64,000 nucleotides of DNA from the human T2T-CHM13v2.0 reference genome, Homo sapiens: assembly GCF_009914755.1 (NCBI RefSeq), contig NC_060931.1. One strand, given 5' to 3'. This document shows positions 45,831-63,984 of the stretch, piece by piece. The notes under the pieces were generated by a model. The model searched no databases, was not told the origin of the DNA, and saw only the letters and a list, made by a program, of their open reading frames with translations. The first letter of the stretch is position 1. The number at the start of each line of letters is the position of its first letter. Made by a program: the position numbers and the translations under genes.

Positions 45831-45958
45831 CTAGAATGTCTTCATAGACGTTCTCCTCCGATAAAGTGCGTGTCAGCCCCAGCTTAGTCTGCGCGTACCA
45901 GTCCACCCTGCTGCTCTCAGAGGAAGACTGCAGTAAATCTTCAAACTCATAGGACTTT
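45831..45958 (-). CDS. DENND2A: Exon 4 (128 nt): KSYEFEDLLQ...ENVYEDIL
   Basis: ttccag|AAAG acceptor, TAG|gtaaga donor, phase 2 to 1. Confidence 0.95.
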
Positions 45959-46701
45959 CTGGAATGTGCCAGATGGGAGGAAAAAACAAAGAATTTGAAT
46001 CAAATTAGGCTGTTTCAGAGAATATATTAATATATCCCCTCGGCCAAATTTTCTTTTTCTTAGAAAAATTGTTACCGAAATCAACTTTTATTTTATTTCA
46101 TTTTTTGAGACAAAGTCTTGCTCCGTTGCCCAGGCTGGAGGGCAGCGGCGCCATCTTGGCTCACTGCAACCTGCGCTTCCTGGGTTCAAGCAATTCTTCT
46201 GCCTCAGCCTCCAGAGAAGCTGGGACTATAGGCATGCACCACCATGCCTGGCTAGTTTTTGTATTTTTAGTAGAGACAAAGTTTCACTGTGTTGGCCAGG
46301 CTGGTCTCGAACTCCTGACCTCAGGTGATCTGCCTGTCTTGGCCTCCAAAAGTGCTGGGATTATACACTGTGCCCGGCCTGAAATCAACTTCTGTTATTG
46401 TAAAAGGTGTGAAAATCCATGAATAAGAGATGTGGCTTTTATGTGCAAGAATGTTCATGCTATTATGCTAAGTGAAAATAATAAAGTATATGTAAAAAAA
46501 TAAAATCCCAACTTTGTAAACAAACATAGACGTAGAAAATAGAAAAGGGGGCCGGGAGCAGTGGCTCACTAGTATAGACAGGGACTGTCTATACTATTTT
46601 ACAAATCAGGACACGAAGTTTCAGCCCATTTATGTAGTTCATCCAAGTCTAAAAGGCTTGTGACTAAGGATATGGAACAGTCCTTATTATAGTACAGATA
46701 G

Positions 46702-47157
<456 letters not shown>

Positions 47158-48269
47158 TGATCTGCCTGCCTCAGCCTCCCAAAGTGCTAACATTACAGGC
47201 GTGAGCCACTGTGCCCGGCCTCTTATACACATTTTATTTATCAGAAGACAGAGGCATAGAGGGGTTAGATAAATTGCTCCAGGTATATTGGGAAAAGGTG
47301 GTGGAATTAGGGTCTGACCGCAGGAAGTCTGGTTGGAGACTGATGCTTTTAATGACACAGGGCATTATGGAGAGCATTTATTTAAGTGAGGCATGTCAGG
47401 AGGGAAGCTGCATTCACAGGCTCCAAACTAAAACAGGCTGAATTTCAACAGTTTGCTGTTGGGAACCTGAACTAATTTTCCATACAAAACTGCATTACAC
47501 AGTGATAATTACATTGCTGCATTACACAGTACTGTGCGATACCCAGGCAGACCCTCTGTTTCCCTCAAGTAGTAAGTAATCTATGCTATGAGGAGATGCT
47601 ATGAACCCTTACAGGGAAAAGGGGGACAGGAAGGGGTCATTTCACTGGAAGCCAGGCAGTTTCTCCCACTCTCAGGGCCAGGGTAGTAACCACCACCTAC
47701 AGGTAAAGCCTTGACTGCCTAGAATTACAGCACGACCCTGGCTGAGTTTGGCCTTTTCTTTGAGAGAGAGAAAGGGGCTGTAGCTGTGCCTTGCTTTGCC
47801 ATGGCGAGAGCTCTATTTATTTTTAGAAACAGGTTCTCCCTCTGTTGCCCAGGCTGGAGTGCAGTGGTGCCACCACAGCTCACCGCACCTCAAATTCCTG
47901 GGCTCAGGCAATCCTTGTCCTTCAGCCTCCGGAGTAGCTGAGACTGCAGTTGCATGCCACCATGGCTGGCTAAGTTTTAATTTTTTGTAGAAATGGAGGT
48001 CTTGCTTTGCTGCCCAGGCTGGTCTCAAACTTCTGGGCTCAAGCGATCCTCCTGTCTCAGCCTCCCTGTTGTCTGGGATTATAGTTCTGTTTTTATTTTT
48101 TAAAATCTCATTGGAAACAATATTTGTATAGGTCAAATTTCGAAATGATAAAGTACCTATGAAATAACATCTGAATCTTTAAAATGTTTTCATAATAACT
48201 GCCCTAACAACAGAAGATATTTGTATGGTTAAAGGCTCTCCAAATCTCAGCGGATGACTCGCTTATTTA

Positions 48270-48647
<378 letters not shown>

Positions 48648-48887
48648 TTAGCTTTTATCCCAGTGGTTACTGTCAGACACCTGGGATTTCAAGACATAGT
48701 TTGAATGTTTTGTATAATCCTTCTATATTTCCAAGAACAAGATGCTAATATAAGAGCTCAGGCCAGACACAGTGGCTCATGCCTGTAATCCCAGCACTTT
48801 GGGAGGCTGAGGCAGGAGGATTGCTTGAGGCCAGGAGTTCAAGGCCAGCCTGGGCAACAAAGTAAGATCCCATCTCTACAAAAACTA

Positions 48888-49091
<204 letters not shown>

Positions 49092-49275
49092 TTACATTTG
49101 ATTTCTGACACATAAAAGGTCACTAGTCTAAACAGCATTAGAAAAGTCCAATTTGAAAACAATTAAAAACTCCCTTTAAAAAAATGAAGATGGGGGTGGG
49201 CGCAGTAGCTCACACCTATAATCCTAGCACTTTGGGAGGCCGAAGCAGGTGGACTGCTTGAGCTCAGGAGTTTCA

Positions 49276-49461
<186 letters not shown>

Positions 49462-49814
49462 TCATTTTGAGACAGAGTGAGACCCTGTTTCAAAATAAAA
49501 GATGGTTATTCACGTTGCAAAACTAATTTGCAAAACGATTCATCAAAAGGTTTCTCAAATAGCAGCTCTATTTCCTGTATTAAAGGGTTAGTTTTCAGGT
49601 GACTAATTCCTATGCAGGAAGTCTGAAAGGCAAACAAATTAACATGAGGTACAGTCCATACAAGATCAAGGAGAAGCCAGAAATCTTTACATGCCCAGTT
49701 TCTAGAACTAGTAGGAAAGTAGGATTCCAATTATAACATTTGATCTATCATTGTCATGTGTTGGTAACACATGCCAAAGCATTTAGAAAGTTAGCTCTTC
49801 CTAGCAGTTCTTTA

Positions 49815-50235
49815 TTTTCCCTCCCTTCCTTCCTTTCTTTCTTTCTTTCTCTTTCTTTCTTTCTTTCTTTCCTTCCTTCCTTCCTTCTTTCTCTCTCTTT
49901 CCTTTCCTTTCTCTCTCTCTTTTCTTTCTCTTTCCCTCCCTCCTTTTCTTTCCTTCCTTTCTTTCTTTTCTTTTCTTTCTTTCTTTTTCCTTCTCTTTCT
50001 TTCCCTCCCTCCCTCCCCTTCCTTCTTTCCTTCCTTCCCTTCCCTTTCCTTCCTTCCTTCTTTCTTTCTTTCTTTTTCTTCCTCTCTCTTTCTCCTCCCT
50101 TCCCTTCCCTCCCCTCCCCTCCCCCCTCCCTACTCCCCTCCCCTCCCCCTCCCCTCTCCCTCCTCTCCCCTCCCCTTCCCCTCTCCCTCCTCTCCCCTCC
50201 CCTCCCCTTCTTTTCTTCTTCTTTTTTTTTTTTTT
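49815..50235 (+). repeat. About 420-bp polypyrimidine/polypurine tract (TTTC, TTCC, TCCC units)
   Basis: Almost entirely C/T on the plus strand; continuous with an Alu tail. Confidence 0.95.
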
Positions 50236-50670
50236 GATGGAGTTTCGCTCTTGACGCCCAGGCTCTTGTCACCCAGGTGCAATCTCGGCTCGCTGCAGCC
50301 TCTGCCCTCTGGGTTCAAGCAATTCTCCTGCCTCAGCCTCCCGAGTAGCTGAGATTACAGGCGCCTGCCACCACATCTGGCTAATTTTTATTTTTTTTTT
50401 TTGAGACGGAGTCTCGCTCTGTCGCCCAGACTGGAGTGCAGTGGTGCGATCTTGGCTCACTGAAAGCTCCACCTCCTCGGTTCACACCATTCTCCTGCCT
50501 CAGGCTCTCGAGTAGCTGGGACTACAGGCGCCTGCCACCATGCCCAGCTATTTTTTAAAATTTTATTTTTAGTAGAGACTGGGTTTCACCGTGTTAGCCA
50601 GGATGGTTTTGATCTCCTGACGTTGTGATCTGCCCACCTCAGCCTCCCAAAGTGCTGGGATTACAGGTGA

Positions 50671-51084
<414 letters not shown>

Positions 51085-51779
51085 TAGCATTATTTCTACA
51101 GCCTACATAAATGTCAGGGACATCAGTCCTCCCCTTCTGAGGTTTAGGTAGGTGATTAGGCTCCCTGAAGAGGAGAAATGTGATCACACCAATCCTTCAA
51201 CTGCTAACCTAATTCTGTTCTCTACAAATATTTTTTTTAACTTGAAAGTTTTAGTACCTTCATTTACACATTAACTTTGAGAGAAAGGAAACTGTGAAAG
51301 GTTAATGAACGATAACCACATCCAAACAGGCTTCTCTCTAATTTAAACATTTTCAACATTCATTCCACATCCCGCCTGCAAGTTTAATAAGTAAACATGC
51401 GAGTCACATTGTGCTCAAAGTGGGTGATACAAAGGCGAGAGGTCCCTGCCTTTGGGGAGCCCACAGCCTGGGGAAGAGGTGTAACCTCCACTCAGCCTCA
51501 CTTTACTTCCCAGGTCCTCAAATGATCGTTTGATATTTGGTGCTTCTGAGTTTCAGAGATGCTAGAATGAGCTGGTTGTTCCAAAGAACTTTGCTGAAGG
51601 GCGTTATAACCTATGTAATAGCCAAATTTCAACAACCAATGCCAAACACTGTGATTCTGAGTCGTATTTTGAATGTTCTTCATGACTTCTCCATATTTTT
51701 GTAAATGAAATGCTAACTTAGAGCTCCTCCCATTTGGACAATGCGGAAGAATCTCAAAGCTGAACTCGTAATCCTATTG

Positions 51780-53491
<1,712 letters not shown>

Positions 53492-55215
53492 TGAATATTT
53501 TAAAAGCTGGTTTTAAGTGCTACATTTACTGTTTATAATTTATCCCTACTTCAAGATTTAAAAAAAAAAAGCAGCTGTATTATTGAGTTAATTTTTAGTA
53601 AATTGTTTTGAATCCATTTCCCCCAGGATTATTTTCCTCTATGGATTAAAAAAGCTTGGCTACAGGCCAGGTGTGGTGGCTCACGCCTATAATCCTAGCA
53701 CTTTGGTAGGCTGAGGCAGGCAGATGGCTTGAGTCCAGGAGTTCAAGACCAGCCTGGGCAACATAGCAAAACCCTGCCTCTACAAAAAATACAAAAATTA
53801 GCTGGGTGTGGTGGCATGTGCCTGTGGTCGCAACTACTCCGGAGGCGGAGGCAGGAGAATCACTTGGCCCAGGAGGCGGAGGTTGCAGTGAGTTGAGATT
53901 GCACCACTGCACTCCGGCCTGGGAGACAGAGCAAGACCCTGTTTAAAAAAAAAAAAAGCTTGGCTAGCCTGGCACCTAGCGACCATTTAAAACATCATCC
54001 AGCTGGGTTAGAAATCAAGGATGCCACGCGCTGACTTCCATCCTCCTCCTCCAGCTGCCAGAGTCTTTCTGCCTGTCTCTCCTGAGTGGCCACGGCAGCT
54101 CTTCCCCATGGCTCGCCATACTCAGGAAGGGCTTTCCTACCACCAGGTGCTCAGGGCAGGCGGCTAGGCAGGAGGAGACTTCCGTTAGCTCTCAGCTTGC
54201 ATTCTGTTATCGGGTAACTCCTCCACCGTGTACTAGGATCACTCACAGGGTTTCTGCTTTTCTCTATCCTGGATCTAAACCCTAAATGTCAGAAGGAAAA
54301 ACTATTTCTGTCCCTCATTGTGGCTAATATCCAACGATTTCCACCTTTCAATGAGAAATGACATGAAAATCACTCTTGTAATGGACAACAGCAACCTTGG
54401 AAGAGCAAGCACCGTCTCTCTGTTTTCCAATGCAGCTTCTATTGAAATAAATGGCTTTACTAAATCAAGTTTCTCAGAAGCTTCCAGAGTAGCTTTTGCT
54501 CTAAACATCAACTTAATCAAACAATGCGCTCCTTTGAAGACTTGAAACATTCAGTTTTTAGACGTGGTAATTCCGAGTTGTCTCAGGGATGCCTTGCTGA
54601 CTGAGATGGACCACAGCTTGGCTGGTAAGTTAATTTTAACTGTTAAACCTGTGAGAGCCGAGGGTTGCTGCCCAGCCAGAGAGCTGTGGGGATCCGTATC
54701 AGTCCCATAGAAGATGGAAATTATGGAATCAATAACAGCACAGTGTGATCTGGCAGCCATATAATGACTGAGGTTTCACGTCCTCAAGAAGTTCTGAAAG
54801 TCTTACACTAAAGCTCCAAGGAAAGGCCAAATCTATATGATGCCAAAATAATCAGCTGAAAAGTTGAAATTTTGGTCATTGCAGTTATTTGGTTTCATAA
54901 AGATCTACAAGCTGTCACATGACCAGGTTAAACTAAAATTTAAAAATCTGAATTCCAGTTAAGACATTTTGAGTATGTAGATACATGTGAATTCAGGATG
55001 GTGCTCACACTTAAAGAGTAGTAACTTTTCTTGTTAAATGTCGGCCTTAAGGCATTCTTGCCAGAGCTATTAAGTGTATGCCATAAAACACATATAACCA
55101 AGTTAATGTTGTTGTAGGAACCTTATCTTTGGAATTTCCTGACATTTGAGGGTTTCTCATTTTCCATTTTAGGATTGAAGGCCTAAGTCCTTGCATTTAA
55201 TTTCCTGGGGCTTTA

Positions 55216-55341
55216 AAGAAATGAAGAAAGAAAAGAGAAGACAGCAAATAGAGAGGGAGAGAGAAAAGGAGGGAAAAGGAAGGAAAGAGAAGAGGAGAAA
55301 AGAAAAAAGAAGAGAGAGAAACAGGAAGAGAAAAAGAAAAA
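55216..55341 (+). repeat. GA-rich polypurine tract
   Basis: Direct reading. Confidence 0.8.
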
Positions 55342-56129
55342 TACGCTTTCTTAAACCGAGGATCTGAATCCGCTGGTTTTGCTCTTAAGGAGGTGAAATA
55401 ATTGGCCTATGAAAATAAGCTGAATACATTCTCTAAGGCACACACAGCCTGGCCATGAAATTTGAAACCCTCATAACCTCTAAATCCTTAATCATTTCTT
55501 TCTTCAACCTTGGTTTGGCTTTCCTCCCTCAAAGAGGGTGGTGCGTCTGCCAAATTCGTGGTACAGTCCTTTTTGTTTTTAAGAGATAGGACCACAATAA
55601 AGAGCATACTTTATTTTTTTAAGAGTAGAAAGTGAATATCTTGCCCTAATCACCTCCATTGTACTATTTTAAACAAAATGAAAAACCCAAAGTCAAAATT
55701 GTTAAAACACAGCTGATGAAACCATATTCAAACTGGCCAAGAAAAATTTCATCTTTGGACTGAAATAAGTAACTTTAGCTGTTTATAAAGAAAACACTGG
55801 AAGACTGAAAAGCGCAGATGATAGTTAAGAGAGAAAAGATAATGGGAATAACTGTTCCCCAGGTTGACTCGCCTGCCCAGTGATGACACAGATGAAGGAT
55901 TCCAGTTTCCCAGAATCAACCTGTCCCTGGGGGTGTGGGACCTCCTTGGAGGAAGAGCCAGAAGGGGCGTGGAAGGGCTGCTGTGGGAAGCACTGGGCAG
56001 GGGCAGGGAAGTCATGGGAGTGCTCGGGGACCCGGGCTTTGGCACTGGCTGGAGAAAGGATTTATTATTGGAGATGGATTCAGATTTTCTCAGAACATAA
56101 AGAAGGAAGCATCTAAGTTCTTCTCCAGA

Positions 56130-57230
56130 CCTCAAGTAACACTGAAACTCAAACCTAGTAAAGATAGTGCAATCATCCTGTATGTATTCTGCAAAAAAAA
56201 GATAGTGCAATAAAACCCAAGTCTAGACCAGTCTAATTTATTTACTGATACAAAAATCTTAAAATATTAGCAAATAAAATTCAGTAGTACATTAAAAGAA
56301 TAATAAACCAGGCCCGAATGGGAATTCATCCCCCACATTTAAGGATGGGTTAATATTAAAATATAAATTCAATATGAATGGATCAGAGCAGAAGAATCAT
56401 ATGATCATCAGGAGTTTCTGAAAAGTACTTTAACAAAAATCTAATCTCTAGTCCTAATTTTTAAAACTCTAAGTGAAAAAATAAATATAAATGGACACTA
56501 ACTTGATAACATAAAAACATATCTCAAATAAGAGTGCCTGTGAGTGAAACTCTAGATGCGTTACCATTAAAGTTAGGGGCGAAGTAAGACTGTACGCTGC
56601 TTTCAGCACTACGATTTAACACTGTTCGGAAGTCTCAGCCAGTGCAATTTGGTAAGAGAATTAGGTATAAATTAAAAAGAAAAGGTAAAATGATGATTCT
56701 TTGTAGACAATATGGTTATATTCATAGTTTCTATGAATCAACTAACAGACTATTAGAAATAATAAGAAATTTAAGATGTCTTAAAAAATACACATATATA
56801 TACACACAAACACACACAAAATAAGAGTTTTCTTAAATACAAAGACCATATGAGAAAAAAGACATTAACCATTGCATTAAAAAGAGAAAAGACTTAGAAA
56901 TAAATGTAGCAAATACATAGCATGTCAAATAATTATATATTAATTACAAAAACCCCCACATATTTTATGTATGTGAAATTTGATAGTAATATTTAGAACA
57001 TTCAGAAAAATACAGGCAGAAACACTCAAGACATTTTTGGAAAAGGTGAATAATAAGTAAATAAACAAACAAGAGGTTTATAATTACTAAAAAGGAGAGA
57101 GACAAAGTGATTATTATTTTTTTTTGCATATGACATGATGTTATATATAGGAAGTCCAAGAGGATCAACTGACTAATTATTAGCAACATTAAGAACTTTC
57201 TATAAGCTCTACTAGATATTAAAATACATT
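56130..57230 (+). mobile_element. Degenerate L1M ORF2 fragment
   Basis: aaaatattagcaaataaaattcagtagtacattaaaagaataata; A-rich ORF2-like sequence. Confidence 0.65.
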
Positions 57231-57295
57231 ATGGTCTGGGTGTGGGGCTCATGCCTGTAATCCCAGCAGTTTGGGAGGCCAAGGCAGGCAGATCA

Positions 57296-57541
<246 letters not shown>

Positions 57542-57619
57542 TTAAAATAATAGTTTGGTACTGAAAAAAAAATAGCCTGATTAATTAAACAGAATGGAGC
57601 CAGAGAAAAATAAAACACT

Positions 57620-57800
57620 TCACACATATTGAACAGGCTCTGTACTAAGTTTATGTTATACATGTTAACTCATTCAATCTTCACAACAACTCTGTGAAGT
57701 GGTTACTATAATATAATTATCACCATTTTACAGATAGGTAAAATGAGGCCAACACAATTTAGTTGCTTGTCCAATGTCCCACAGCTAGTAAGTAGCAAAA
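57620..57800 (-). mobile_element. MIR
   Basis: ccattttacagatagg...acagctagtaagt. Confidence 0.7.
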
Positions 57801-57999
57801 CTAGTAATGCTATATGCTCCTTATCACAGCATTATTTGTAAACTGGGAATAACTTATATATATTTACATATATATATACAAATATATGTAAATAAATTCT
57901 AGAATATGCAAACTTTTTCCCCCTTGAAGAGAACACAAGAAATTATGCTATTATGCTATTTACAGAGAAAGTGGGGAAAAAAAAGAAATTATGCTATTT

Positions 58000-58930
58000 A
58001 CAGCCAAAAGAATCATCCTACATGACAGACCATGCTGAGTGGGGGGTGACAGGATTTAATTTATAGTTTATATTTTTAGAAGACTCCTCTGGCTGCTGAG
58101 GGAGGAATGTTCTACGGATGGGAAGTGAATCCAAGATGATTAAGATGGTAGCAGTGGAGGAGATGTAGGCAGATTTGGGATAAAGTTTTGAAACTAGAAC
58201 CAAAGGACCTGGTGATGAATTAGGAAGGGGTATATGAAAAAGAGAGGAATTGGAGATGACTTTTTAGGTTTGTGGCCTAAGCAACTAAACAAACGGTGAT
58301 GCCATTTAGAAGGATGACAATTATTTTAGGAGGTGGTTACTGGTGGCCTGGATGGAGAACTTGGGTTTGGACACGTTAAGTATAAATGATAAGACAACCA
58401 AATGGAGATCCAAGCAGGAGATGACTACACAAACCTTAAGCTGGGGGAGGGAGTTGGGGCTGAATGCCTCAATTTGGGAATCATAAGCATGACATTGACA
58501 TTTAAAGCCATGGGACTGGATGAGATCATTTAGGGAGTGAGTGTAGATGGAGAAGAAAAGTCTCAGGTCTGGCCCTGGGTTGAGGTGGGGATAGGTTCGG
58601 GGTGTGCTCTGACAGATAGAAGGAAAAAAGAATGGAACTCAAAGGAGCCAGAGAAGCAGGACTTCCAGGGACATGGGTGACCCAGAAGCCAAATGAAGGA
58701 AGTGTTTCAAGATGGAGCAAGTCAACAGGTGTTCCTCGAATACTGAGAGGGGCCAATTAAGAAAAAAACAAAGAACTGGCAATTGGATTTAGCAAGATGG
58801 AGGTTACTGGTGGCCTCGGGACAGGGTAGTTTCAGGAGGAGGTTCCCAAAGCTCAATGGGGTGGGTCAAGAGAAAATAGGAGGTGAAATGATGAAAGGGA
58901 GTACAACAACTGTTCTGAGGAGTTTTGCTC
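58000..58930 (-). mobile_element. L2 fragment
   Basis: tttaaagccatgggactggatgagatca, gaagccaaatgaaggaagtgtttcaag, ttggatttagcaagatggagg. Confidence 0.75.
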
Positions 58931-59114
58931 TAAAGCTGGTTTCTAGATTAGTGGGTATCAAACCAACTAGCATGTTACAGAAATGGACTAGAGATTAAGT
59001 TGCAAAATAGAAAAATTGTTTTCGAAGCACAGATTTTATTTTTAAGCATTAACATGCTTTATTATTTAATGTGTTATTTTAACGTTATAAAATATTCACA
59101 GTGCGTGCATCCAT

Positions 59115-59185
59115 ATGTATAAATGAGGAAACTGAGGCTTCGAGAGGTTAGATAACTTGTTTAAGGTCACATAGATAGACACTGA
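59115..59185 (-). mobile_element. MIR core
   Basis: atgaggaaactgaggc...aacttgtttaaggtcaca. Confidence 0.75.
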
Positions 59186-59580
59186 TAGGGCCAGTGTATT
59201 TCTAAAGCCCACACCAAGAAAAATTCAAGCACTGGTAGTTAGCAGGGACTACCAAGTTGTAGACTGCCAGGGTTAACATAAGTCCTTCATTTAACTCTTG
59301 GTTACTGTCCCAATTCCAAGTCCTTATTACATCTAAAGGGTAATTTTTAAAAGCACATACTCTTCTTTTTTGAGGACTGAGAACAAACACAAAATACATG
59401 CATCAGTTACCAAGTTTCCAGGTTAATTAACAAAGTATCTTAAGCTATGAACCATCTGGACTACAAGATCCATCAGTTTAATAAAACAAATAATTCAGCT
59501 GAGAACAGACGGTTATGATGGGACACAAACCACTGAGAGAGTCAGGTGGCGACACTCTGCCTGGCCACACCGGCACCTAC

Positions 59581-60575
59581 CTGTGGTCTGCACTGGATTT
59601 CTGTCTCCCGGTCCACAGTCTTCTGTTCACAGAGGAAGGTGGGGGAGAGGAGGGCAGAGGCGGGGGAGGTAGAGAGGGCAGAGGAGGCAGATTTCTTTTC
59701 TCTTTCCTGAAGCCGATGCCAGGCTTCCCATCTTTGTCCCCTTCTCCGGCATGTTTGAACGTTCTCCGGGGTTTTGGCAGAGGGTTGATGAAGGGCTTTG
59801 TGGGGGAACCCTCCGAGCCCCTATACACGTTCTCAAGGCTCCGGTCCCAGGGCCTTCTGCATGAACCTTTCCTGTCCTCCACAAGCTCAGGGGTGGGCTC
59901 CCTGCCTTCCAGGTCCGAGGGGTGGACCCTCTGGCTGACTTCTGAGCCACTCCCGCCTCCCAGGTTCTCAGGAAGGGTGGACCCTGCCTCTGCCTTGTCA
60001 GGAGGGCAGTGTGGGGAGTAACAAGTCCCTGGTAACTGGGGATCCAGCCCTGCCGACCCATCCTTCAAAGCCTGCTCGAGTTTCTTGACCTGCTTCAGCA
60101 CGGAGAGGTGATCGTTCTGAAAGCGTAGCTTGCCAAGTCTTGGCTCTCGGCCTCGGCCCCAGCTAGGATCCACTTCCCGTTCTGGCTGGCTTAGGTCTTG
60201 CCCCGGCTCTGGGTCCTGTCCCCCGACGTTCACTGCTCCTTTATTCCTCTCCTTCTCTGTGCTCTCTGTTCCTGGCCTCATTCCATTCTTAGCCTCTGTG
60301 ACCTGAGTTCTCACCCCATCACTACTCCTCCTCTCCACCGTAGAGGACGGCAGATAATCCTCCTGTCCGTCTGCTCTCCTGCTGGGTGCAGGAGTGGGCA
60401 CCTCTTTCTTCCCTTCCCATTCTGATATCTTGTCCTTTATGTTGAGGGACTTGTGCCGGGGTCTGGCTCTGGCAGATGGGCAAGGGTTCTGAACACCTCT
60501 GAGCTGCTTCTTCCCAGCCCTGCTGGCTTCTGCAGCTGGGTCACTGATGATCATATCCAAGCTGAACATATCCAT
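59581..60575 (-). CDS. DENND2A: Exon 3 coding part (995 nt, aa 1-332), disordered Pro-rich N-terminus
   Basis: 332-aa ORF; strong Kozak agaATGG; donor CAG|gtaggt; ends in phase 2. Confidence 0.97.
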
Positions 60576-60720
60576 TCTTGACTCTAGCGTGAGGTTGTGG
60601 AGGCCTTCCAGGGGACTCCTTCTGAAGCCTGACTCCTGATCAGTCTCTAGGAATGGAATGGAGGACTAAAGTGGATGCCTTCGAGGGTCTTTCTCAGTCC
60701 TTGGACCTTCCACCTTGACC
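60576..60720 (-). other. DENND2A: 5'UTR part (145 nt) of exon 3
   Basis: Acceptor tttgtctttcttgtgcag|GGTCAA with branch-like actcac upstream. Confidence 0.85.
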
Positions 60721-60861
60721 CTGCACAAGAAAGACAAACACCAGGTGAGTGATTCTTATTGTTCTTGGCTGGTCATAGAGATTTGCTAGAACTTAGATAT
60801 AAATGTTATATGCAAGTCACAAACCACAAACATTGAAATTCCTATTAAAAAAAAAAATTCA

Positions 60862-60984
<123 letters not shown>

Positions 60985-61029
60985 CTACAAAAATTTTTTT
61001 TAAAAACTCAATTTGTGTTTTCCTTGGGG

Positions 61030-61175
61030 AGACAGCATGGTGAAATGAAGGAGCAATCGGGTTTAGGAGTCAGATAGGCTTGGGTTTAAATCCTAATTCA
61101 GTCACGTGACCTTAGGCAAGTTGTTTAAGTCCTCTAAACCTCAGTTTCCACCTCTGTAAAATGAAGATCATAATA
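61030..61175 (+). mobile_element. MIR
   Basis: gtgaccttaggcaagttg...cctcagtttcc..ctgtaaaatg. Confidence 0.75.
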
Positions 61176-61891
61176 ATATGGGCCAGGCATTGTGGCTCAC
61201 ACCTGTAATCCCAGCACTTTGGGAGGCCGAGGCGGGTGGATCACGAGGTCAGGAGTTTGAGACCAGCCTGGCTAACATGGTGAAACCCCGTCTGTACTAA
61301 AAATACAAAGATTAGCGGGGTGTGGTGGCAGGCCCTGTAATCCCAGCTACTCACTCAAGAGATTGAGGCAGGAGAATTGCTGGAACCCGGGAGGCAGAGA
61401 TTGCAGTAAACTTAGATTGCACCACTGCACTCCAGCCTGGGCAACAGAGAGAGACTCTGTCTCAAAAATAAAAATAAAAATAAAATAGGAGTAATTTCAC
61501 GAGGTAAAAGATTACATAGGCTGCTTTTCCTGCTTTTCTTATCCACAGGCAGTTCTTTGCAATGACTATTTAAAAACTAAAACAACATCACAAGTCATGA
61601 AGTTTGTGCTACCCCTGAACTTGACAAATTGTCTGATTCAAGTGGGCAAAGCCACAATGATTGGATGCATCTGAACAGAACCTCCTCTGGAATGGGGCCT
61701 CACTAGAGTGAGCTCTTCATGAGCCTTGCCACCAGGGCAGGGATTATTCTGTTATTTTGGCCTGTTGTAGCCAAGTCTGCACCCCTAGCACCCAAAACAA
61801 TACCTGGGAGAGTTGGTGGTCAATAAATATCTGGTGCATGAATGAATGCGTGAATAAAGAGGCAGATTCAGATTTCACACTTGGCTTAGAA

Positions 61892-62078
61892 ATGCACTAT
61901 CTAATAGAGTAGCCACCAGCCACACGTGACTATTTAACCTTAAATCCAATGAAATTCAAGCTTCAGTTCCTCAGTTACACCTGCCACATGTCAAGGACTC
62001 AGAAGCGCCATGTGGCTGATGGCTACCGTACTGGATGGGGAAGAAGAATATTTCCATCACTGAATAAAGTTTTGGCCT
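61892..62078. mobile_element. MER3-like hAT element
   Basis: gtagccaccagccacacgtgactattta ... atgtggctgatggctaccgtactgga. Confidence 0.7.
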
Positions 62079-63882
62079 AGAACATATATGTAATGATACA
62101 TGCTTCCAAATGTAATTTTAGATTAGATAATGCCATGAAGATATTAGAAATTATTTTGAAGGAAAAACATTTTTAAATTAGTCTAACAAGAATGAGAGTA
62201 TCTGTGTTGTCCAATGCAAACATTATTCCACCAGCAAAGGTTATGACTGAGTACAGTGACTTTGGATGTGCCGACATTAGCTAACACCTCACGGTGCCCA
62301 TTTTCTGAATGTATAGATCTGACCGCATGGAAATTCTGAAACTCCAGTTAAGGTTCACCGTGAGGGATGAATAAGTAGCAATTTCATGCATCCTGTTACT
62401 ATTTAGCTTTCTATTCCCAAGGTTGTTTGTGTAAAGACCTCTTCCTCAGTGGAGACATTAGCACATAAATTACGCCACTGTTCTTGGTTGCATGGCATAA
62501 AATAGAAACTTGCGAAAACGCAAACACATTTTTTTGGCAAACACATTTTCCTATTTTAAATATGGCTATCAAGGCAGAATTCCTTATTTAAATAAACAAT
62601 TAGGATTCCTAACAGTGTGTTTACAAAGAGAAAATATTTTTAAATTGTTCCATCACCACTGGAGATATTAGCATGAATTAAGATTTTAGTCAGAATCAGT
62701 TTGTTATCTCACTGAGGGTTCAAAAGGCAGAAGTGATGGTCCTTGCTCTCACAGTGCTAGAGGCAAGATGAAGAGAGAGGACAGACACACACATTAAAAA
62801 CACAACAATCCAGGTTAGTGTCTGCATGGTGATGACTGATGGTCTACAACGTGGTTATTAATGTCCTATATGCTGTGAGGCACTATGGCCTAGGAGCTAA
62901 ATACATGGGCTTTGGAAATGAGGGACTTGAGACTTGAATCCTGAGTTTTTCATCTTCCTTCTGTAGACTGAAACTCTATGAGTCAGAGGCCACATTTATA
63001 TTGTTTACTGTGCCTGGTGCATAGCAGCTAGTCAACAAATATTTATTCAATGAATGAATGAATTCATGAGTTAACATGTAATGTGCTCAAAGTACAGCAT
63101 ACTTTCTAAATCTTGGTATCAACAAATGGTAACTAGTGTTATTGTAAGTATCATAGTTATTGTCTAAGAGCCCAAACACATGGAGTGACTTCACAACTAT
63201 GGAAGCTCTGTCGGAAAACTTGAGAGGAACAAAGGATGGCTTGCTGAAAACTCACACTGGATTTACAAAACTCACGCAACAGAGGCAAGGATGCCGCAAC
63301 TGTCCTACGAGTCCCCAAGGACAGAGTTCCTGCTCCATGTGGTTGCCAGCCCAAGAGTTTCTAGAGTTCCTGTTTCCAGGATTCTCCCGCCCCATAAGGG
63401 GTTCCAGACTGGGGTGCAGAGCTAAGAACCCCTCAGTGGCTGCCAACTGCTTTGTGGAATGTGAGAGGATCAGAGAAAGGGCTCCATCTGGGGAGAAGGA
63501 AACAATCACGCTGGTATTAGATGGGAAAACTGACTGTGTACAGGTACAGCTGCAAAGACTTAGGGCTCAAACATAAGTAAAATACCTGAACATCCTAGTA
63601 GTTAGAAAAATAAACCCAGAATTGGAATGCGTCATGGGGATAGGGCTAAAGTTACCAAGGGATCATCCTCTCCTCACACTGGCCATTAGTCAGACTCTCT
63701 CGATCAGTTTGGCCTGAAGCCTTAAATGAATGCAGTGCATGGAGGCGGTCTGCAGGAGGCTCATTAGAATGACCTGGAAAAGAGCTCCTTAGCTCAAGGA
63801 AGTAGGATCAGTGAAGAAGGAGGTGGTAGGAGAGTAAGAAGCTGGGTCAGCGTCTACACTCTCGGGGGAGAAGTGTTCTTAC

Positions 63883-63984
63883 TTGTCAGCCAATTTGTAG
63901 CTCAGGTTTTCAGTCTGGCTGTGGCTGCCCTTGGCCGGCCTGCACACTGTCATCATGTCAGTACCGAGGGGAGTTCCAGGTCAC
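63883..63984 (-). other. DENND2A: Exon 2 (102 nt), 5'UTR relative to the main ATG; contains tandem upstream ATGs at 63956 and 63953
   Basis: Acceptor ccctgtccccccag|GTGACC, donor GACAA|gtaaga; size fits recalled c.-247..-146 exon. Confidence 0.8.

What the first reader, a model, noticed from the sequence alone, without database searches (positions are those of the whole stretch)
59581..60720. Exon 3 as a circRNA: 380 codons, one stop short of an infinite ORF, predicting a 349-aa protein
Seen: 1140 nt is divisible by 3 and the exon contains the strong-Kozak main ATG. Back-splicing makes AG|G and continues in frame as ...SADHR-VKVEGPRTEKDPRRHPL to TAG at 60666-60668, the only stop in that frame around the circle. 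The product would be aa 1-332 plus a 17-aa tail, with no DENN domain. Recalled, to verify: a single-exon circDENND2A has been reported, mostly as a miRNA sponge. Loss or read-through of the TAG would allow rolling-circle translation. The circle is also the natural lariat by-product of the skipping event above.
Basis: partly seen in the sequence, partly recalled or inferred. Interest (0 to 1): 0.75.

Follow-up and report, generated by a model that had tools for sequence, protein, structure and literature searches.

The report
Known circular RNA circDENND2A, translation unproven

Summary
All the sequence facts hold. The exon at 59581-60720 (-) is 1140 nt with AG and GT splice flanks. Its ATG at 60575 has A at -3 and G at +4. 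On a circle, the ATG frame has one stop, TAG 60668-60666, which gives a 349-aa ORF: residues 1-332 plus a 17-aa tail.

The circle is already in print as hsa_circ_0002142 (circDENND2A). The published junction siRNA spans the predicted back-splice junction exactly. PMC11657290 gives exon 3, 1140 bp, Sanger-confirmed. An ENCODE table lists 578 junction reads.

"One stop short of infinite" is not unusual: 38% of shuffled 5'UTRs have one stop or none. Stagsted 2019 found ORF tails at chance length and no translation signal for this class of circles. I found no report that circDENND2A is translated.

New here: the same TAG also ends a 42-aa upstream ORF that starts in exon 2. Tail footprints, tail peptides and stop-loss variants are therefore not specific to the circle. 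Trypsin also cuts at the junction. Inverted Alu and MIR-like repeats flank the exon.

Verdict: a known, probably non-coding circle; coding is possible but untested.

The parts
59581..60720 (-). DENND2A exon 3, 1140 nt. This is the body of the single-exon circRNA hsa_circ_0002142 (circDENND2A).
   Evidence: Searches give length and splice flanks; the published junction siRNA and divergent primers match. PMC11657290 gives hg19 chr7:140301202-140302342, exon 3, 1140 bp; 578 ENCODE junction reads.
60721..60722 (-). AG of the 3' splice site (the back-splice acceptor), preceded by a pyrimidine-rich tract
59579..59580 (-). GT of the 5' splice site (the back-splice donor), CAG|GTAGGT
60573..60575 (-). 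Main ATG of DENND2A, with A at -3 and G at +4
   Evidence: hub annotation (coding starts at 60575)
60669..60720 (-). 5'UTR stretch read after the back-splice: the last base of the junction Arg codon plus 17 tail codons. In the linear mRNA the same 17 codons end the exon-2 upstream ORF.
60666..60668 (-). TAG. It is the only stop in the ATG frame around the circle, and it also terminates the exon-2 upstream ORF of the linear mRNA.
63954..63956 (-). First ATG of an ATGATG pair in exon 2. It starts a 42-codon upstream ORF in frame with the main ORF, ending at TAG 60668-60666.
61106..61158 (.). Intron-2 arm of a proximal inverted repeat, 386 nt from the acceptor. The MIR-like label is recalled, not tested.
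   Evidence: 53 nt, 75% complementary. RNA duplex of 121-nt windows -73.1 kcal/mol against -35.8 +/- 4.8 in 300 shuffles.
59118..59170 (.). Intron-3 arm of the same inverted repeat, 411 nt from the donor
61172..61487 (+). Full-length Alu-like SINE in intron 2, antisense to the gene
   Evidence: two sub-threshold Metazoa_SRP matches on the + strand; about 300-nt inverted matches to at least 7 elements in intron 3.
60864..60993 (+). Alu-like monomer, 144 nt from the acceptor, in the same orientation as the full-length element
53192..53485 (-). Nearest full-length Alu-like element of opposite orientation in intron 3, 6096 nt from the donor. Others lie at 52900-53199, 52079-52385, 50779-51082, 50384-50683, 46967-47220 and 46086-46363.
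59801..59808 (-). 8-mer seed match to miR-625-5p. Two more 6-mer matches begin at 59667 and 59646.
   Evidence: using the miRNA sequence printed in PMC6446274 Table S1.
60005..60011 (-). 7-mer seed match to miR-34a (seed recalled from memory)

Best explanation
Exon 3 of DENND2A is the known single-exon circular RNA hsa_circ_0002142 (circDENND2A). It forms when the exon's own donor (59581) is back-spliced to its own acceptor (60720). Pairing between inverted repeats in the two flanking introns most likely helps this. The candidates are an Alu and an Alu monomer next to the acceptor facing at least 7 opposite-sense Alus in the 13.6-kb downstream intron, plus a short MIR-like pair about 400 nt from each splice site.

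The circle belongs to the start-codon-containing ('AUG') class. Its 349-codon junction-spanning ORF follows automatically from three things: the exon holds the main ATG, its length is a multiple of three, and the 5'UTR carries an in-frame TAG. In the linear mRNA that TAG closes an exon-2 upstream ORF and separates it from the main ORF.

The circle most likely acts, if it acts at all, as the cytoplasmic non-coding RNA that the literature describes: a binder of miR-625-5p and miR-34a, and of LDHA.

Shown: the circle's identity and the ORF arithmetic. Inferred: the biogenesis route, and that little or no protein is made.
For: Identity:
- The published siRNA equals 15 nt of the exon end plus 6 nt of the exon start, and is absent from the linear window on both strands.
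- The published primers are divergent within the exon and give a 129-nt amplicon on the circle.
- PMC11657290 (passages) states exon 3, 1140 bp, hg19 chr7:140301202-140302342, with a Sanger-confirmed junction.
- Stagsted 2019 Table S2 lists 578 junction reads for it, out of 741 summed over the 19 DENND2A rows held.
- PMC6446274 (passages) reports RNase R resistance and a cytoplasmic FISH signal.

Chance-level ORF:
- P(<=1 stop)=0.38 and P(tail this long or longer)=0.47.
- Stagsted 2019 (passages) reports that 8% of AUG circRNAs have infinite ORFs, the median tail is 10 aa and close to the geometric expectation, and the stops are not conserved. It found no in-frame phasing of ribosome-profiling reads across back-splice junctions and no product from three tagged circles.

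No translation report:
- 0 papers hold DENND2A + circRNA + polysom*.
- All 10 papers holding circDENND2A + IRES are reviews by title.
- DENND2A is absent from 8 readable supplements of Fan 2022, from 11 readable supplements of the immunopeptidomics paper, and from a 2025 review of circRNA-encoded proteins.

Repeats:
- 28 inverted blastn matches (HSPs) cross the exon between the two introns. There are 0 inverted pairs inside intron 2.
- The proximal inverted-repeat (MIR-like) pair gives a duplex z-score of -7.7.

Sponge claims fit the sequence: 3 miR-625-5p seed matches (one an 8-mer) and 1 miR-34a 7-mer.
Against: - circDENND2A sits at row 3514 of the ENCODE table, and Stagsted's ribosome-profiling analysis used only the top 1000 circles. 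Their negative result therefore does not test this circle directly.
- Absence from mass-spectrometry catalogues is weak evidence. Trypsin cuts after the junction Arg, and all tail peptides are 5 aa or shorter without missed cleavage (read from the outputs).
- Fan 2022 (passages) argues that circRNA translation is pervasive and driven by short elements present in most circles.
- The circle is cytoplasmic and hypoxia-induced, and it carries a strong-context ATG. A GGACT motif lies 125 nt upstream of the ATG and one AAGAAG hexamer lies downstream.
- The sponge role rests on very few sites per circle.
- Intron 3 has many internal inverted Alu pairs that would compete with cross-exon pairing (151 matches, each pair counted twice).
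- The MIR-like pair is only 53 nt, whereas PMC7371899 found that about 200 nt were needed for ciRS-7.
Confidence: 0.8

Rival explanations
1. The circle is translated cap-independently from the main ATG across the junction to TAG 60668-60666. This gives a 349-aa, about 38-kDa, basic, proline-rich N-terminal fragment of DENND2A without the DENN domain. The fragment could compete with the full-length protein for its localisation partners.
For: - The ORF is intact, with A at -3 and G at +4 and no ATG in the 145 nt upstream within the exon.
- The circle is cytoplasmic and hypoxia-induced.
- A GGACT motif lies 125 nt upstream of the ATG, and one AAGAAG hexamer of the kind Fan 2022 names is present.
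- In the paralogue DENND2B, an N-terminal construct localises like the full-length protein but is inactive (PMC4347646, passages).
- Tryptic proteomics would miss the product.
Against: - No report of translation was found.
- DRACH motifs are not enriched: 29 against 24.8 +/- 4.3 in shuffles.
- The tail length is at chance.
- There is class-wide negative evidence.
- Fan 2022 reports that circRNA-coded tails often destabilise the product.
Confidence: 0.12
2. Read-through or loss of the TAG turns the circle into an endless 380-codon ORF that is translated in rolling-circle fashion into concatemers.
For: - The length is a multiple of three and TAG is the only in-frame stop.
- Rolling-circle translation of endogenous circles is reported for circPSAP, circPFAS and circABHD12 (Fan 2022 passages).
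Against: - The defining feature, no stop in frame, is not met.
- The stop is followed by TCC..., which is none of the read-through contexts I recall (the motifs are recalled).
- A stop-loss allele would also fuse the exon-2 upstream ORF to the main ORF of the linear mRNA, so any effect would not be specific to the circle.
- It also requires the first rival to be true.
Confidence: 0.02
3. Biogenesis rival: the circle is made inside the lariat released when exon 3 is skipped (exon 2 joined to exon 4), rather than by direct back-splicing.
For: - This is a recognised pathway (PMC7371899 passages describe both routes).
- Skipping would give a plausible mRNA. The exon-2 ATG then falls in frame with the DENN-encoding part and stays open for 468 codons to the window's last exon.
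Against: - No skipped transcript was seen or could be looked for with these tools.
- Inverted repeats flanking the exon favour direct back-splicing.
- For ciRS-7, the one case read here, the lariat route was excluded.
Confidence: 0.2

Closest known systems
hsa_circ_0002142 / circDENND2A (PMC6446274, PMC7490337, PMC11657290)
   Same: The same molecule: same junction, same exon, same 1140-nt length.
   Different: None in sequence. The papers treat it as non-coding (miR-625-5p and miR-34a sponge, LDHA binder). In what I read or searched, none mentions its ORF.
AUG circRNAs (Stagsted et al. 2019, PMC6487579)
   Same: It contains the host start codon, and its ORF runs across the junction into the 5'UTR and stops after a chance-length tail.
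   Different: Their table labels this circle 'Ambiguous circRNA' because host isoform annotations diverge. They describe the class as largely Alu-independent, whereas inverted Alus do flank this exon.
Rolling-circle (infinite-ORF) circRNAs such as circPSAP, circPFAS and circABHD12 (Fan et al. 2022, PMC9242994)
   Same: Length divisible by three, with the host reading frame kept across the junction.
   Different: This circle has an in-frame TAG, so the ORF is finite. DENND2A is not in their readable supplements.
MIR-dependent circRNAs (ciRS-7, circCDK8, circSPNS1; PMC7371899)
   Same: An inverted pair of MIR-like sequences lies within 500 nt of each splice site.
   Different: The pair is only 53 nt at 75% complementarity, against about 200 nt needed for ciRS-7. 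Alus are present here too. The MIR label is recalled, not tested.

Membership tests
Exonic circRNA hsa_circ_0002142 | Canonical AG...GT splice sites bound the circularised exon | tested here: met
Exonic circRNA hsa_circ_0002142 | The back-splice junction sequence equals the published junction reagents and coordinates | tested here: met
   The siRNA covers 15+6 nt over the junction and the primers are divergent. Length and exon number agree. hg19 spacing to exon 2 is 3264 nt, the same as in the window.
Exonic circRNA hsa_circ_0002142 | RNase R resistance and no amplification from genomic DNA | not testable with these tools
   Reported in PMC6446274 and PMC11657290 (passages).
Exonic circRNA hsa_circ_0002142 | Complementary sequences in the flanking introns | tested here: met
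   28 inverted matches across the exon; MIR-like pair with duplex z=-7.7
AUG circRNA | Contains the annotated start codon but not the host stop codon | tested here: met
   hub annotation. The authors' own label is 'Ambiguous'.
AUG circRNA | Alu-independent biogenesis with very long flanking introns | tested here: inconclusive
   The introns are 3162 and 13622 nt. Inverted Alus are present, but the nearest opposite-sense partner is 6.1 kb from the donor.
Translated circRNA (circRNA-encoded protein) | ORF spanning the back-splice junction | tested here: met
   349 aa
Translated circRNA (circRNA-encoded protein) | An IRES or m6A element that drives cap-independent initiation | tested here: inconclusive
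   29 DRACH motifs against 24.8 +/- 4.3 in shuffles, two GGACT and one AAGAAG. These are motif counts only.
Translated circRNA (circRNA-encoded protein) | Ribosome association or a junction peptide | not testable with these tools
   Nothing was found in print. Tryptic data are nearly blind to this junction.
Rolling-circle ORF circRNA | Length is a multiple of three | tested here: met
   1140 = 380 x 3
Rolling-circle ORF circRNA | No stop codon in the frame around the circle | tested here: not met
   TAG at 60668-60666

The most novel reading that the evidence does not exclude
Under hypoxia, when the circle accumulates and cap-dependent initiation falls, circDENND2A is translated from the main ATG into the 349-aa DENN-less N-terminal fragment. 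That protein, rather than miRNA sponging, would carry part of the migration and invasion phenotypes attributed to the circle, by competing with full-length DENND2A for its localisation partners.
Probability: 0.08. Interest if true: 0.5.

Novelty: already known. Interest (0 to 1): 0.2.

Why it matters
The circle is a published cancer- and hypoxia-associated RNA, and its reported phenotypes are explained only by sponge or scaffold models. If its ORF were used, those papers would need re-reading, and a dominant-negative form of a Rab exchange factor would be added to the list of circRNA-encoded proteins.

As things stand, the value of this check is practical. It shows that the ORF is a by-product at chance level. 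It shows that the tail and the TAG are shared with an upstream ORF of the linear mRNA. It also shows that trypsin destroys the junction peptide, so three of the obvious tests would mislead unless they are redesigned.

Tried and rejected
- One literature look-up failed on a too-short term and was repeated correctly.
- PMC7490337 gave no structural detail on the circle: 0 occurrences of exon, chr7, back-splice, circBase or RNase R.
- Pfam on aa 1-331 found nothing. It therefore gives no functional handle on the fragment beyond its composition (12.6% Pro, pI 9.6, eight PxxP motifs).
- DRACH and hexamer counts cannot decide whether the circle is translated.
- A mir-3135 match at 61384-61443 (48.1 bits against a gathering score of 80) lies inside the Alu. 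I take it as Alu-derived resemblance, not a gene.
- Conservation of the TAG and the tail in other mammals, gnomAD variants and circBase/circAtlas records could not be consulted. No mammalian genomes or such databases are held.
- The Stagsted table was cut when stored, so a mouse counterpart could not be looked for.
- I did not run the large protein searches, structure prediction or complex prediction. None of them bears on whether a circle is translated.

Full report
**1. The observation**

Read on the minus strand, the exon at 59581-60720 is 1140 nt. It is preceded by a pyrimidine-rich tract ending in CAG and followed by GTAGGT. The annotated ATG lies at 60575-60573, with A at -3 and G at +4. 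It is the first ATG in the exon. The coding part is 995 nt, that is 331 codons plus AG.

If the exon end is joined to its start, AG|G gives Arg. The linear mRNA also has Arg there (AGA). Around the circle that frame has one stop, while the other two frames have 13 and 11. The product is 349 aa, about 38.4 kDa, pI 9.6, 12.6% proline, with a cluster of PxxP motifs at residues 297-311. It has no Pfam match in residues 1-331.

**2. Is it more than chance?**

No. The 331 coding codons are open because they are coding. Only the 49 codons of the 5'UTR part are informative.
- Their composition predicts 2.05 stops.
- In 20,000 shuffles, 11.7% had no stop and 38.0% had one or none.
- 47.3% had a tail at least this long.

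Stagsted et al. 2019 (PMC6487579, passages read) report the same for the whole class. About 8% of start-codon circles have endless ORFs. The median tail is 10 aa, close to the geometric expectation, and the tail stop codons are not conserved.

**3. What it is**

The circle is already in print.
- PMC6446274 names hsa_circ_0002142 (circDENND2A). Its Table S1, read whole, gives an siRNA and a primer pair.
- The siRNA's target is absent from the linear window on both strands. It equals 15 nt of the exon end followed by 6 nt of the exon start.
- The primers sit at 59629 and 60664-60641, pointing away from each other, and give a 129-nt amplicon only on a circle.
- PMC11657290 (passages) states that the circle is chr7:140301202-140302342 (hg19), exon 3, 1140 bp, with a Sanger-confirmed junction.
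- Table S2 of Stagsted 2019 lists 578 ENCODE junction reads for exactly these coordinates, labelled 'Ambiguous circRNA'. That is 578 of 741 reads summed over the 19 DENND2A rows in the part of the file that is held; the file was cut when stored.
- RNase R resistance, hypoxia induction and a cytoplasmic FISH signal are reported in PMC6446274 (passages).

Reported functions:
- Sponging of miR-625-5p (PMC6446274).
- Sponging of miR-34a (PMC7490337; abstract start and passages).
- Binding of LDHA (PMC11657290; title and passages).

The sequence is compatible with the two sponge claims. It has three seed matches for miR-625-5p, one of them an 8-mer at 59808-59801. It has one 7-mer for miR-34a at 60011-60005, using a seed recalled from memory. 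That is very few sites per circle.

**4. How it is probably made**

- Intron 2 (60721-63882, 3162 nt) holds an Alu-like monomer 144 nt from the acceptor and a full-length element at 61172-61487. Both lie on the + strand, supported by sub-threshold Metazoa_SRP matches.
- Intron 2 has no internal inverted pair.
- Intron 3 (45959-59580, 13622 nt) holds at least seven elements of about 300 nt in the opposite orientation, at 77-82% identity. The nearest is 6.1 kb from the donor.
- In all, 28 inverted and 14 direct matches link the two introns.
- Intron 3 also has many internal inverted pairs (151 matches, each pair counted twice). These would compete with cross-exon pairing.
- Closer in, 59118-59170 and 61106-61158 form a 53-nt inverted pair at 75% complementarity, about 400 nt from each splice site.
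- The RNA duplex of the surrounding 121-nt windows is -73.1 kcal/mol, against -35.8 +/- 4.8 in 300 shuffles.
- I recognise the MIR core in this pair from memory. That label is not tested.
- Inverted MIRs drive ciRS-7 circularisation, but about 200 nt were needed there (PMC7371899, passages). This pair may therefore be too short to matter on its own.

Direct back-splicing helped by intron pairing is my inference.

**5. Is it translated?**

I found no evidence for it.
- 0 papers hold DENND2A, circRNA and polysom* together.
- The 10 papers holding circDENND2A and IRES are all reviews by title.
- DENND2A does not occur in the 8 readable supplements of Fan 2022, whose data list 990 junctions with spectra; one file was unreadable.
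- It does not occur in the 11 readable supplements of the immunopeptidomics study PMC10943130; one file was unreadable.
- It does not occur in a 2025 review of circRNA-encoded proteins.

Class-wide, Stagsted 2019 found no in-frame phasing of ribosome-profiling reads across junctions and no product from three tagged circles.

The case against is not closed either.
- Stagsted's ribosome-profiling analysis covered only the top 1000 circles, and this one sits at row 3514 of their table.
- Fan 2022 argues for pervasive circRNA translation.
- This junction is nearly invisible to tryptic proteomics. Trypsin cuts right after the junction Arg, and without missed cleavage every tail peptide is 5 aa or shorter (read from the outputs).
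- Motif counts do not decide it: 29 DRACH against 24.8 +/- 4.3 in shuffles, a GGACT 125 nt upstream of the ATG, and one AAGAAG.

**6.

Exon 2 (63883-63984) carries an ATGATG pair at 63956-63951. In the linear mRNA, this pair opens a 42-codon upstream ORF in the same frame as the main ORF. That ORF ends at the very same TAG, and its last 17 residues are the circle's tail. Three things follow.
- (a) Footprints or peptides from 60719-60666 do not prove circle translation.
- (b) A stop-loss variant at the TAG would also give the linear mRNA an N-terminally extended DENND2A. The proposed gnomAD test therefore cannot isolate the circle.
- (c) The TAG has a plausible role in the linear mRNA, so it needs no circle-based explanation.

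Only the junction itself is specific to the circle.

**7. Read-through and rolling circle**

The defining condition, no stop in frame, is not met. The stop is followed by TCC, which resembles none of the read-through contexts I recall. I rate this reading at about 2%.

**8. What the protein would be, if it were made**

It would be a DENN-less N-terminal fragment. The DENND2 family has a C-terminal DENN domain and little else that is distinctive. For the paralogue DENND2B, an N-terminal construct localises like the full-length protein but is inactive (PMC4347646, passages). DENND2A knock-down affects Rab9-linked late-endosome traffic. A competitor or dominant-negative role is therefore a reasonable inference by analogy, with no direct support.

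**9. Verdict**

- The circle is already known.
- The ORF is real but at chance level and unproven.
- The rolling-circle idea fails its defining test.
- Interest is low (0.2).
- The useful additions are the shared upstream ORF and TAG, the trypsin blind spot, and the repeat architecture of the flanking introns.

Noticed in passing
window 63951-63956 (-) to 60666-60668 (-): An ATGATG pair in exon 2 opens a 42-codon upstream ORF that crosses the exon 2-3 junction in the main ORF's frame. It ends at the same TAG as the circle ORF and shares its last 17 residues. A TGA at bases 2-4 of exon 2 closes that frame further upstream.
   Followed up: yes
window 63883-63984 joined to 45831-45958 (-): If exon 3 were skipped, the exon-2 ATG would fall in frame with the DENN-encoding exons and stay open for 468 codons to the last exon in the window. 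Without the exon-2 ATG, the next in-frame Met is residue 378 of the linear protein.
   Followed up: partly
window 59581-60720 plus 63883-63984 (-): A two-exon circle of exons 2+3 (hg19 140301202-140305606; 17 ENCODE reads) is 1242 nt, also a multiple of three. Its ORF stops at the TGA directly after the junction codon, giving 332 aa with no tail.
   Followed up: partly
window 61384-61443 (-): A sub-threshold Rfam match to mir-3135 (48.1 bits; gathering score 80) lies inside the intron-2 Alu. It is most likely Alu-derived resemblance.
   Followed up: no
window 59640-59690 (-), residues 297-311: A dense proline run with six of the eight PxxP motifs, a likely SH3-type docking stretch. It also accounts for the C-rich miR-625-5p seed matches.
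   Followed up: no
window 45959-59580: Intron 3 is packed with Alu-like elements in both orientations: 151 internal inverted blastn matches (each pair counted twice), 78 of them 200 nt or longer. These would compete with cross-exon pairing.
   Followed up: partly
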